DNA from: Paraspadella gotoi
Taxonomy: Eukaryota; Animalia; Chaetognatha
Direction: 5' to 3'
DNA length: 63,995 nt
NCBI GenBank assembly: GCA_051294375.1
Contig: CM119266.1
Location: forward strand, 21,093,992 to 21,157,986
The notes under the pieces were generated by a model. The model made no database searches. It worked only from the letters and a program-made list of their open reading frames with translations, and was not told the DNA's origin. Both the position numbers and the translations under genes were made by a program. Positions 30 to 55,860 of this stretch are shown in pieces. How positions within the stretch are numbered: the first letter of the stretch is position 1; each line of letters starts with the position of its first letter.

Positions 30-202
30 ATAAACGAGACTGTGAGATAGTCTTGATTGAAAGCTTGCTGGAACCTGCTATGTCATTATCTTGTAAGAGT
101 GACGGAGGCCTTAAACCACCAAAGCCTGTCCAAAGTCAGGGGCAACATAGCTCGTTTATTAAATGAATGGATAACTTTTATATTGGTTGTACCAATTTCA
201 TA
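30..202 (+). mobile_element. Family A short retroelement-like repeat, 5'-truncated copy
   Basis: Same sequence (aaacgagactgtgag...ttggttgtaccaatttcata) recurs at about 11 positions in the window. Confidence 0.85.
87..150 (+). ncRNA. P5-type twister ribozyme motif, family A
   Basis: tatcttgt(P5)-aa-gagt(P2)-GA-cgg(T1)-aggcct(P1 palindrome)-TAA-acc(P2)-ACC-aaa-G-cctg(P4)-T-cca(T1)-AAGT-cagg(P4)-g-ggcaacata(P5). One T1 mismatch in this copy; other copies have tgg. Confidence 0.7.
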
Positions 203-1007
203 ATCATAATTTAAAGTAATAACTTTTGTTAAAGAAAACCATTTTAAATTCAGTACTTTATATTTATAATCATATTCTTAATAACATCTTAACTTTCTGG
301 CAATTTCCTTTCCCTCAACATCCCTTCAGAATCAACCCCCCGCTCCGCTCCCCCTCTCTCCCCCAATTCCTTTGTCCTCTCTTCTTCCTCCCCCCCTCCA
401 CCCGCCCCCCTTTTTTTTTTCAGAAGATTCACACCAATTTCCCGCGTTTTGGTGGTGGTAGGGTGGGATGGTGAAATGGTGAGCGACGAGCGGTGAACGN
501 NNNNNNNNNNNNNNNNNNNNNNNNCGTCGTTCGTCTCACCTTCGAATGATTTAAACCTCTTCACCGTGACTCGCGCCTATTGATCTTTTTTTTTTCGCGG
601 GTCCACCAGCCACTTCACCATCACCGACCGCTTTTCCGCTTCGTCACCCATCCCTGCTCCTTACCCTTACCCCCCTATTTTTTGTCGCACGTATGAAGCG
701 TTCCACCGCTCGTCGCTCACACATTTTCACCATCCCCACCCTACCCACCGACCAAAACGCGGGAAATTGGGTGTGAATCTTCTGAAAAAAAAAAAGGGGG
801 GCGGGTTGAGGGGGGGACGGAAGAAGAGAGAAAGGAATTTGGGGGAGTAGAGGGGGAGCGTTGAGCGCGGGGTTGATTCTGAAGGGATGTTGAGGGAAAG
901 GAAATTGCCAGAAAGTTCAAGATGTTATTAAGGAGATATGTTATAAATATAAAGTACTGAATTTAAATGGTTTTCTTTAACAAAGTTATTGACTTTTAAA
1001 TTATGAT

Positions 1008-1130
1008 TATGAAATTGGTACAACCAATTAAAAGTTATCCATTCATTTAATAAACGAGCTATGGTGCCCCTGACTTTGGACAGGTTTTGGTTGGTTTAAG
1101 GCTCCGTCACTCTTACAAGATAATGACACT
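1008..1130 (-). mobile_element. Family A copy (twister motif ~1060-1122), interrupted by a family B insertion and continuing at 1878-1920
   Basis: Reverse complement of 75-202; the rest of the element resumes after 1877. Confidence 0.8.
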
Positions 1131-1242
1131 AGCGGATAAGGAAAGGATATTGATATTAGGATTAAGTGCGCTATCTGTTGGGTCTTGAAGATGACTGTCC
1201 GTAACTTCTATAACCCCCTCTAGCAGCTCAATGGGATTTCTG

Positions 1243-1322
1243 TGTGTTCCTGGGCTTGAACCAGCTTGAGGGTTTGGCCATTGCACCCAAGGCCGGCTTA
1301 CGGCCGTCCTCACGCTTCCCGC
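1243..1322 (-). ncRNA. P5-type twister ribozyme motif, family B, noisy copy
   Basis: Minus strand gcggg-aa-gcgt-GA-gga-cggccg-TAA-gccg-GCC...ccctcaa-G-ctgg-ttcaagc-ccagg; predicted U/A cut at 1300/1299. Confidence 0.6.
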
Positions 1323-53600: not shown

Positions 53601-54404
53601 AAAACGAGAATAAAAGGTCGCCCCTCCCTTAAAAAAATCAAAACTTTATTATTAAATTCGATTTACACAAATTTTTTAAAAAAGAGAAATTTTAGTGAAG
53701 ATATATTGTGTTTCTTAATTCTGAATTTTAGATATCAGTTTTGGCGAACAGCCACTCCTGGAAATTTCAACTATTGCGGTCAGTGAGATCAACCTAGTAT
53801 TTACCATTTAGCGAATGGCATTCAGCAAATTCCATTCAGCGTATGGCATACTACGAATGGCATCCAGTCAAATTTATAAATGCCACTTTGCCAATTCCTT
53901 TTTTCCAACAAAAAAGCTAGGGTCGAGTGTGAGGGAGAGACGAATGCGGTGAGACGGGATGCGAGTGGCGACTGAGGACGATCATCGAGGGCGAGGATGG
54001 AAAAAGGATTGGAAACTAAGGAAAAAAAAAAGGAAAATAGGAAAGGAAGAGGAATAAGGAAAAGGGCGGGGGAGGTGATTTTCGGGCGAACCCGGCCACA
54101 TAAATCCAGGAGATGACCAGCGATGACCCGCGTATTGGTAAACACTCATGAAATATTGGAAAGAACATATCAACAAACGTCGAAGAGACCAGCGCCAGGG
54201 GGTCGTCGCTCTCTCTCTCTNNNNNNNNNNNNNNNNNNNNNNNNNCTCTTCTTCTTTTGTTTCTCTTCTCTCGTTTCTCTCTCTCTCTCTCTCTCTCTCT
54301 CTCTTCTCTCTCTCTCCTCTCTCTCTCTCTCTCTCTGCTCTACTCTAACCTTCTTTTCGCGATCCCGCATGTAAAAATCTTAGAAAATCATACATAATAT
54401 CACA

Positions 54405-54882
54405 TGAATAAACGAGACTGTGAAAGAGTCTTGATTGAAAGCTTACGGGGACCTGCTATTGTCATTATCTTGTTAAGAATGATGAAGGCCTTAAACCACC
54501 AAAGCCTGTCCAAAGTCAGGGGCAAGATAGCTTATTTATTAAATGAATGGATAATTTTTATATTGTTCTACCAATTTCATAAAATTCAGCTCTTTGTATT
54601 TTGATGTCTGGGGGAGTACAATATAGTATTCCCCGATCTAATACTCTAAGGGAGTGGTCTTTTATACAAGTGAAACATTCTTTTAAACATTATACCACTT
54701 CAGTGATAGGGAAACCAGGTACTCTGGAGTGAATAACGAGACCTGTGAGAGAGTCTTGATTGAAAGCTTATGGGGACCTGGTATGCAATTATCTTGTTAA
54801 AAACCAAAGCCCCAAAGTCAGGGCAAGATAGCTTATTTATTAAATGAATGAATAATTTTTATATTGGTTTGTACCAATTTAA
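54405..54882 (+). mobile_element. Family A, ~1.5 tandem units
   Basis: Duplicate of 47566-48062. Confidence 0.85.
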
Positions 54883-55370
54883 TATATAATATATATAAAT
54901 TATAATCACTTATACATAAAATTTATATGCTTTATAGCGTATTACTCGATCATCTTCGTCCATTGAATGCTTTTTTTTTCTTCCAAACATTTTTAAGGGC
55001 AGAAACGAAAGCTAAAAACTTCAAATTACTCTCAGAAACAAATTTTTTTCTCTCCTTTTTGGGCTACAGAATGAAATCTTTGCTTTAGTCTTAAGATGAA
55101 TTTGCGTAAATCAGATGGAATTTTGACATTTCTTCTCTTTCCCCCAGAAAAAAAAAATTTTAGCTGTCGTCTCGCGTTTCCCTTTTTTTTTGTCGAGGTT
55201 TTTGTTTTTTAAACATAGTTTTTTAATCTAAGGAATGTTTATTTAAATTTTCTTATTTTCTTTGTTGTTCTATGATATTTTCTCTCTCTGTATTTCTGCT
55301 CTATCTAACCTTCTTTTTCGCGATTCCGCATGTTAAAAATTCTGAGAAAATCATACATAATATCACATAT

Positions 55371-55860
55371 GAATAAACGAGACTGTGAAAGAGTCTTGAT
55401 TGAAAGCTTACGGGGACCTGCTATGTCATTATCTTGTAAGAATGATGAAGGCCTTAAACCACCAAAGCCTGTCCAAAGTCAGGGGCAAGATAGCTTATTT
55501 ATTAAATGAATGGATAATTTTTATATTGCTTCTACCAATTTCATAAAATTCAGCTCTTTGTATTTTGATGCTGGGCGGAGTACAATATAGTATTCTCCGA
55601 TCTAATACTTAAGGGAGTGGTCTTTTCATACAAGTGAAACATTCTTTTAAACATTATACCACTTCAGTGATAGGGAAACCAGAGTACACTCTGGAAGTGA
55701 ATAAACGAGACTGTGAGAGAGTCTCGATTGAAAGCTTGCAGGGACCTGCTATGTCATTATCTTGGCCTTAAACCACCAAAGCCTGTCCAAAGTCAGGGGC
55801 AAGATAGCTTATTTATTAAATGAATGAATAATTTTTATATTGGTTGTACCAATTTCATAT
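55371..55860 (+). mobile_element. Family A, ~1.5 tandem units (twister motif 55430-55492)
   Basis: tatcttgt-aa-gaat-GA-tga-aggcct-TAA-acc-acc-aaa-g-cctg-t-cca-aagt-cagg-g-gcaagata; fully paired 8 bp P5. Confidence 0.85.

What the first reader, a model, noticed from the sequence alone, without database searches (positions are those of the whole stretch)
87..55860. Three unrelated short repeat families share a permuted (P5-type) twister ribozyme with a palindromic P1: candidate twister-based retrozyme system
Seen: families A, B and C all follow the order P5-AA-P2'-GA-T1'-[palindrome]-TAA-P2-RCC-(P3)-G-P4-T-T1-AAGY-P4'-P5'. Pairing covaries between families: T1 cca/tgg (A) versus tcc/gga (B); second pseudoknot ACC..AAGT (A) versus GCC..AAGC (B); different P4 and P5 stems; P3 absent in A and present in B and C. 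Known: this is the twister consensus in its P5 permutation, and the animal retrozymes I know of are short tandem non-autonomous retroelements built on type I hammerheads. Inference: these are twister-using analogues whose multimeric transcripts self-cleave to monomers (possibly circularised) and are re-inserted by an autonomous element. I cannot verify that this is undescribed.
Basis: partly seen in the sequence, partly recalled or inferred. Interest (0 to 1): 0.92.

Follow-up and report, generated by a model that had tools for sequence, protein, structure and literature searches.

The report
Twister ribozymes in animal mini-retrotransposons
Three abundant non-coding repeat families in an animal genome share a conserved RNA fold of the self-cutting "twister" type with a short self-complementary stretch, and the one complete copy is built like a miniature LTR retrotransposon with a tRNA-like promoter motif, so these elements likely cut their own RNA to unit length and would close it into a circle for copying, a route described so far with a different ribozyme.

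Summary
The twister-like fold is real. Families A, B and C keep the P5-type order. A descriptor finds 3 copies with at most one mismatch, against 0.04 per shuffle. In C, whose window copy is damaged, the majority letters in four public runs repair all 4 descriptor mismatches and two further pairings. No copy reaches Rfam's cut-off; P2 is 3 bp plus a bulge in A and B.

The complete B copy is LTR (287 nt, TG…CA), 130-nt internal part, LTR, with tRNA-type A/B boxes just before the twister. That matches Helenus-type TRIMs, not tandem non-LTR retrozymes. C looks like a solo LTR of that kind. A lacks the B box and stays unresolved. B and C share a layout, so "unrelated" is doubtful.

Best reading: a twister-based animal LTR retrozyme, with pol III transcription, two cuts 424 nt apart, circularisation and likely paired ribozymes. 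Cleavage and circles are untested; primer site and target duplications were not shown here. Ten literature searches found no such element. This scan has reported the system on other DNA of this genome (12 notes in one look-up); those notes gave me the LTR lead.

The parts
1134..1876 (-). Family B complete element (LTR-internal-LTR, 743 nt), inserted inside a family A copy; the inverted duplicate of that A copy at 14-203 lacks the insert
   Evidence: the last ~35 nt are garbled and no public contig covers 1134-1169
1590..1876 (-). B 5' LTR, 287 nt, starts TG, ends CA; A-box-like 1803-1812, B box 1762-1772, twister core 1679-1741, predicted cut after the U at 1724
1460..1589 (-). B internal part, 130 nt; start resembles the tRNA-His primer site only with gaps and without TGG (inconclusive); ends in a five-G tract two bases before the 3' LTR
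1134..1459 (-). B 3' LTR; A-box-like 1387-1396, B box 1342-1352, twister core 1254-1317, predicted cut after the U at 1300
   Evidence: (243 matches, 13 mismatches, 18 gaps against the 5' LTR); many public contigs stop at 1459
40565..40800 (+). B 5'-truncated single LTR ending in CA; twister core 40656-40718
29907..30144 (+). Family C LTR-like unit (starts TG, ends CATA); B box 29987-29997; damaged twister core about 30009-30091
17998..18227 (+). Second assembly copy of the same C locus (inside a duplicated segment)
9662..9740 (+). 5' fragment of family C, same TG start, no ribozyme part
14..203 (+). Family A locus i; twister core 95-140 (one T1 mismatch); best Rfam Twister-P5 score; seen again inverted at 1008-1133 plus 1877-1951
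23670..23910 (+). Family A locus ii, older copy with damaged L4
50261..50546 (-). Family A locus iii (spacer plus one unit; core 50324-50367); seen again at 44294-44601
55331..55859 (+). Family A locus iv, two units with an ~85-nt spacer; first core 55438-55483, second core lacks P2'-GA-T1'; seen again at 47526-48062 and 54370-54884

Best explanation
These repeats are likely miniature non-coding LTR retrotransposons and their solo LTRs whose terminal repeat carries a twister-type fold, in families B and C directly behind a tRNA-like promoter motif, that is predicted to cut the element's RNA at the same point in both repeats and free a unit-length RNA (424 nt in B) that would be circularised and copied by a helper retrotransposon. 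Shown by sequence and calls: high copy number, conserved fold, LTR-internal-LTR layout of B, promoter boxes in B and C, fixed ends. Inferred steps: (1) RNA polymerase III starts in the 5' LTR and reads through, since B and C have no run of four T on this strand. [quoted passage not shown] (3) The 6-8-nt self-complementary linker that replaces P1 pairs with its twin in the other LTR or in a second RNA, giving a swapped double ribozyme; this is optional because P1 can be deleted in vitro. It may also serve as a genome-dimerisation signal (recalled analogy to retroviral palindromes). (4) Identical cuts remove the terminal redundancy that ordinary LTR strand transfer needs, so a host RtcB-type ligase would close the unit and reverse transcription would run across the joint, as modelled for plant retrozymes. 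(5) A Gypsy-type element elsewhere in the genome would supply RT and integrase. A likely belongs to the same system but has lost or never had the B box.
For: Fold. Independent test on C: of 12 well-supported majority substitutions between 29965 and 30116, six fall on constrained twister positions and all six repair them (30024 GA, 30027 T1, 30030 palindrome, 30036 UAA, 30077 AAGC/T2, 30090 P5), in all 4 runs laid. Majority A and B motifs are seen in loose-end consensuses. Abundance: 3,332 contigs of run X1 lie on the 511-nt A+B stretch and 1,612 on the 421-nt C stretch. LTR layout of B: TG starts at 1876 and 1459, CA ends at 1590 and at the solo copy, G tract before the 3' LTR; empty versus filled site. 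Fixed ends in public contigs: A at 1007/1008, B at 1459, C at 30144. B box exact in B 3' LTR and C. Palindromes pair in two-strand folding: 6-nt duplexes of -9.1 and -10.7 kcal/mol, dimers 8-14 kcal/mol below two monomers, pseudoknots not modelled. Precedent: two gall-wasp Helenus LTRs carry a hammerhead motif in the same position behind the tRNA-like part (read by eye; not remarked in the paper's text). Circle model and RtcB ligation: PMC4918200, PMC7229834.
Against: No cleavage or circle data. All Rfam scores are below cut-off and B has no twister hit. P2 in A and B is one pair short, and a change in P2 length was suggested to disturb the active site. No target-site duplication at any end-complete copy; the B site is garbled. 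No clear primer site in B, and none in A. The predicted B unit folds no better than shuffles (z -0.26; A unit z -1.68), unlike the strongly paired circles reported for retrozymes; both are error-rich copies. Lack of T runs is not significant (P 0.24 for B). A has five T runs and only a 3-mismatch B box, its two units differ by 19 substitutions, and its proposed LTR start is not significant (21-23 of 200 shuffles score as well). No RT domain in 14 of 76 long frames scanned. P1 is dispensable in vitro, so dimers are not required.
Confidence: 0.58

Rival explanations
1. The ribozyme is active but only processes the transcript ends; the RNA stays linear. The two cut ends would be held together by P5, P2 and T1 pairing and RT would jump across them, or the cut would stand in for the T-rich terminator that follows the tRNA-like part in most Helenus LTRs.
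For: The predicted unit is not unusually structured. Most Helenus LTRs read have a T-rich stretch and end shortly after the tRNA-like part, whereas B and C have the twister there. The twister 3' fragment ligates poorly in one assay (30%, PMC8782182).
Against: Ribozyme pairs in retrozymes yield abundant circles through host ligase, and cut ends of this chemistry are RtcB substrates.
Confidence: 0.17
2. One reading: tandem non-LTR retrozymes or SINE-like repeats, akin to the tRNA-headed hammerhead repeats of Schistosoma, copied by a LINE or Penelope element. Most plausible for family A.
For: A has a two-unit head-to-tail array with no primer site, 5'-variable copies and a fixed 3' end. No target duplications were found. 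Schistosome repeats join a pol III promoter to a ribozyme (PMC6765202). A Penelope-type minimal hammerhead lies in the same window.
Against: B has a distinct 130-nt internal part between TG…CA repeats and a fixed 5' end about 65 nt upstream of its A box, which a linear SINE transcript would not contain. No trimers in the window.
Confidence: 0.13
3. The fold is conserved but does not cut in A and B (or at all): a twister-derived or twister-like packaging or dimerisation signal, or partly a second tRNA-like arm, because the L4 region resembles a B box.
For: Short P2 in A and B; sub-threshold Rfam scores; the L4 region scores as a 0-1-mismatch B box in B and C.
Against: The catalytic letters (G of GA, UAA, AAG) and both pseudoknots are kept across three families with two-sided changes, and C's majority has a canonical 4-bp P2.
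Confidence: 0.1
4. Chance resemblance found by pattern-seeking in noisy repeats.
For: Four-mismatch hits are common (43.8 per shuffle).
Against: Near-perfect A hits and the six-of-six repair in C's majority.
Confidence: 0.02

Closest known systems
Helenus TRIMs (TRIMp3; Kojima 2024, PMC10886601), above all Helenus-2_SyJa and Helenus-2_SyUm
   Same: Short non-coding LTR-internal-LTR element in an animal, tRNA-derived A/B boxes inside the LTR, many solo LTRs, size in the 311-1263 bp range. The two Synergus LTRs carry a hammerhead motif behind the tRNA-like part (my reading of the supplement).
   Different: A twister fold follows the tRNA-like part; I saw none by eye in the Helenus sequences of supplement parts 1 and 5-9 (parts 2-4 unread). 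The paper's text mentions no ribozyme in Helenus. Primer site and 4-bp duplications not shown here.
Plant LTR retrozymes (Cervera, Urbina, de la Pena 2016, PMC4918200)
   Same: A self-cleaving motif at the same place in both LTRs of a non-coding element; cut-to-cut unit; solo LTRs.
   Different: Type III hammerhead, 600-1000-nt circles, plants; no tRNA-type promoter in the passages read; circles shown there, untested here.
Animal non-LTR retrozymes and the Schistosoma pol III hammerhead repeats (PMC7229834, PMC7761336, PMC6765202)
   Same: [quoted passage not shown]
   Different: Type I hammerhead; no LTR, primer site or purine tract; tandem arrays.
Type-P5 twister ribozyme (Rfam RF02684)
   Same: Order of elements, conserved GA, UAA, RCC and AAGY, both pseudoknots.
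   Different: P1 hairpin replaced by a 6-8-nt self-complementary linker; P2 is 3 bp plus a bulge in A and B; P3 present in B and C; scores below cut-off.
Twister variants at the 5' end of Perere-3/RTE LINEs (Liu 2021, PMC8501958)
   Same: Twister ribozyme serving a retroelement in an invertebrate.
   Different: The examples listed are in P1-type order, single, at the 5' end of an autonomous non-LTR element; no paired copies.

Membership tests
Twister ribozyme, type P5 | Stems P2 and P4, pseudoknots T1 and T2, conserved L1/L4 letters, ends within P5 | tested here: met
   (family majorities; single window copies are damaged)
Twister ribozyme, type P5 | P2 of four Watson-Crick pairs | tested here: inconclusive
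   met in C; three pairs plus a bulge in A and B; consensus
Twister ribozyme, type P5 | P1 stem closed as a hairpin | tested here: not met
   Rfam alignment leaves a loop of 0 nt; only 1-2 pairs can form within one strand; P1 is dispensable in vitro
Twister ribozyme, type P5 | Rfam RF02684 score at or above 37.6 bits | tested here: not met
   best 24.8 bits; 23.4; none for B and C
Twister ribozyme, type P5 | Self-cleavage at U/A | not testable with these tools
   needs an assay
Helenus / TRIMp3 | Two LTRs around a short non-coding internal part, under about 1.3 kb | tested here: met
   B: 287 + 130 + about 300 nt with TG…CA; not shown for C (single LTR-like unit) or A
Helenus / TRIMp3 | tRNA-derived A and B boxes inside the LTR | tested here: met
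   B and C: B box 0-1 mismatch, A box 2 mismatches; not met in A (3 mismatches); no tRNA call by ARAGORN
Helenus / TRIMp3 | Primer-binding site | tested here: inconclusive
   B start resembles the tRNA-His site only with gaps; none seen in A
Helenus / TRIMp3 | Polypurine tract before the 3' LTR | tested here: inconclusive
   five G in B: right place, short; A's purine run lies about 15 nt before the proposed start
Helenus / TRIMp3 | 4-bp target-site duplication (animals) | tested here: not met
   none at C or A locus iv; B's right end is garbled; few, old, error-rich copies
LTR retrozyme | Self-cleaving motif at the same position in both LTRs | tested here: met
   B, 424 nt apart, as a predicted fold
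LTR retrozyme | Hammerhead ribozyme | tested here: not met
   the motif is twister-type; no hammerhead core in A, B or C
LTR retrozyme | Circular unit-length RNA | not testable with these tools
   only contigs were available
LTR retrozyme | Strongly self-paired unit RNA | tested here: not met
   z -0.26 (B) and -1.68 (A) on error-rich copies
Animal non-LTR retrozyme | Tandem units without LTR, primer site or purine tract | tested here: inconclusive
   not met for B; possible for A

The most novel reading that the evidence does not exclude
A lineage of animal LTR retrozymes driven by RNA polymerase III and built on natural dimer-forming twister ribozymes: the two LTR copies pair through a palindrome that replaces P1, coupling genome dimerisation to excision of a circularisable unit, with a bulged-P2 twister variant in two families. 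With the hammerhead motif seen in two wasp Helenus LTRs, ribozymes of different classes would have been captured independently behind the tRNA promoter of Helenus elements.
Probability: 0.4. Interest if true: 0.85.

Novelty: new variant of a known kind. Interest (0 to 1): 0.7.

Why it matters
Twister ribozymes are widespread, but the only retroelement role I found in print is 5' processing of RTE-type LINEs (PMC8501958; a remark in PMC7761336). Retrozymes are described as hammerhead elements, LTR-type in plants and non-LTR in animals (PMC9695139). An animal LTR element with twister would show that the retrozyme life cycle does not depend on ribozyme class or kingdom, would give P5-type twisters a role, and would provide natural P1-less, possibly dimeric twisters and a P2 variant for direct assay. 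It also suggests how some Helenus elements end their pol III transcript.

Tried and rejected
No whole genome is held, so no genome-wide copy set or R-scape test. Run search: no RNA holder listed; one run is only guessed to be RNA, and all were contigs, so nothing on expression, ends or circles. Summed depths are not copy numbers; I use contig counts only as a sign of abundance. Pattern scans of viral (2 hits), metagenome (24) and prokaryote genome (23) collections: 48 of 49 lack T1 plus a 4-bp P4, none has a fully self-complementary linker, and the one exception (L017) needs a shifted loop; treated as chance. The pattern fits A and B only, not C. ARAGORN found no tRNA; Rfam listed none at the B and C heads. 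Similarity of A's 3' end to C's (43 of 200 shuffles as good), of A's head to B or C (46 and 64 of 200), of B's head to C's (4 of 200) and a decayed A unit upstream of locus iii (4 of 200) are not or barely significant. My first reading, tRNA-headed SINEs, was dropped for B after the LTR tests. The duplicated AT-rich repeats at 36955-42778 and the 70-nt array at 5228-5733 are not family C and showed no twister motif at low mismatch. A recalled resemblance of B's motif to part of a leucine tRNA was not tested. The host was placed only as an animal (ABCC protein 38-49% identical to listed animal proteins). Lunse 2017 on dimeric hammerheads is not held; I know only its title from reference lists. 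Roth 2014 was not read.
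Full report
Setting. The window is animal DNA (an ABCC transporter 38-49% identical to listed animal proteins) from an error-rich assembly with several segments present two or three times. No whole genome is held.

Observation. I located the three families from the self-comparison and motif scans. 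A has 4 independent loci, B 2 and C 2. A descriptor with 13 conserved letters, 6 pairs and a P4 of at least 4 bp gave 3 hits at one mismatch (0.04 per shuffle) and 6 at up to two (0.60), 5 of them family A. It missed two of the three B copies, where single-base slips shift P4, and caught the third only in a wrong register; a looser pattern found the single B LTR once, with 0 matches in 100 shuffles. Rfam ranks Twister-P5 first on A but at 23-25 bits against a cut-off of 37.6, lists no twister for B and a partial twister-P1 hit for C.

Independent test. The window's C copy has four mismatches, no better than chance. Laying contigs of four public runs on it listed 14 substitutions, 12 well supported. 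Six lie on constrained twister positions and all six repair the fold: GA, T1, the self-complementary linker, UAA, AAGC and an extra P5 pair. One more lies in the P3 loop and five outside the core. One of the runs may be the source of this DNA; a run of another study shows the same letters. For A and B, loose-end consensuses show T1' TGG in A and a three-base P2 5' strand in both (tables cut). Between families T1, T2, P4 and P5 change on both sides (with that tool's caveats for related rows). The fold is therefore under selection. Two departures matter: P1 is replaced by a self-complementary linker (6 nt in A and B, sharing a GGCC core; 8 nt with two G-U pairs in C's majority), and P2 is three pairs plus a bulge in A and B.

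What the elements are. The complete B copy sits inside an A copy whose inverted duplicate lacks it. It reads LTR of 287 nt (TG to CA), 130 nt internal, five-G tract, second LTR starting TG. Public contigs stop often at that TG (1459), at C's end (30144) and at A's end (1007/1008). B and C carry an A-box-like and a B-box motif just before the twister and no run of four T (not significant alone). Against this, no target duplication was found, the primer site is only a gapped likeness to the tRNA-His site of Helenus, and A has no good B box, five T runs and no primer site. B is a TRIM of the Helenus kind with fair confidence, C likely its relative seen as a solo LTR, and A unresolved.

Mechanism. 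Inferred, not shown: pol III transcription from the 5' LTR, cuts at U/A in both LTRs 424 nt apart, ligation to a circle, tRNA-primed copying across the joint by a Gypsy-type helper. Identical cuts remove the terminal redundancy, which is why a circle (or a jump across paired ends) is needed. The linker can pair with its twin, as amphibian hammerheads with a palindromic tetraloop do (PMC7229834), but twister works without P1 (PMC5408937), so the dimer is likely rather than required. The predicted units are not unusually stable, which counts against the circle.

Literature. Ten searches found no twister-bearing LTR element, SINE or retrozyme and no dimeric natural twister; the library lacks most subscription papers. 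Read: PMC10886601 main text parts 1-4 of 6 and supplement parts 1 and 5-10 of 11; PMC8501958 abstract, introduction, one results section and passages; PMC5408937 passages and one section; passages only of PMC7761336, PMC6765202, PMC7229834, PMC5680766, PMC13725137, PMC10085705, PMC4918200, PMC8782182 and PMC9695139. The supplements of PMC8501958, which list 2,060 twister variants, were not read and may hold genomic P5-type cases. In the Helenus supplement, two Synergus LTRs show a hammerhead motif behind the tRNA-like part (by eye), an independent case of a ribozyme in this slot.

Relatives. Pattern scans of three public collections gave 49 hits, none convincing. This scan's own notes report the same system on other DNA of this genome (12 notes hold all words); they are unchecked and are not counted as support.

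Verdict. Real, conserved twister-type fold in three abundant families; best read as a twister-based animal LTR retrozyme related to Helenus; new variant of a known kind; activity, dimers and circles untested. Interest 0.7.

Noticed in passing
window 24373-24420 + (second assembly copy 12741-12788; fragments near 11655, 12423, 12513 and 24148): Minimal type I hammerhead motif: 5-bp helix I, CUGAUGA core, 5-bp helix II, GAAA followed by a palindromic tetraloop, the kind reported in Penelope-like elements. No Rfam hammerhead hit.
   Followed up: partly
window 5228-5733: Seven tandem copies of a 70-75-nt unit of mixed sequence; no Rfam hit in the whole-window scan. Unexplained.
   Followed up: no
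window 30840-35777 + (partial duplicate about 18900-21860): ABCC/MRP-type ABC transporter gene with few introns, 38-49% identical to the listed animal proteins.
   Followed up: partly
window 1-499 and 699-1951; 12908-21861 and 24538-33849; 43084-48363 and 49059-56158; 36955-42778: Long near-identical duplications differing mostly by indels, next to 25-N gaps: likely the same loci assembled more than once.
   Followed up: partly
PMC10886601 supplement, Helenus-2_SyJa and Helenus-2_SyUm LTRs: A type III hammerhead motif follows the tRNA-like part; the paper's text does not mention it.
   Followed up: partly
window 1259-1269 -, 40700-40720 +, 30069-30079 +: The twister P4/L4 region itself scores as a pol III B box with 0-1 mismatch in B and C; could act as a second promoter box or be coincidence.
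   Followed up: no
runs X1, X2 versus X7 on window 990-1500: The ratio of A to B depth differs strongly between samples (B above A in X1 and X2, A about ten times B in X7), a weak hint of recent or population-specific spread of B.
   Followed up: no
window 30123-30124: Some public contigs leave family C here into a different tail, and one joint goes back to 29951, suggesting a C subfamily or related family.
   Followed up: no
L017 901-957 -: The only one of 49 collection hits with T1 and a long P4-like stem, in a shifted register; probably chance.
   Followed up: partly
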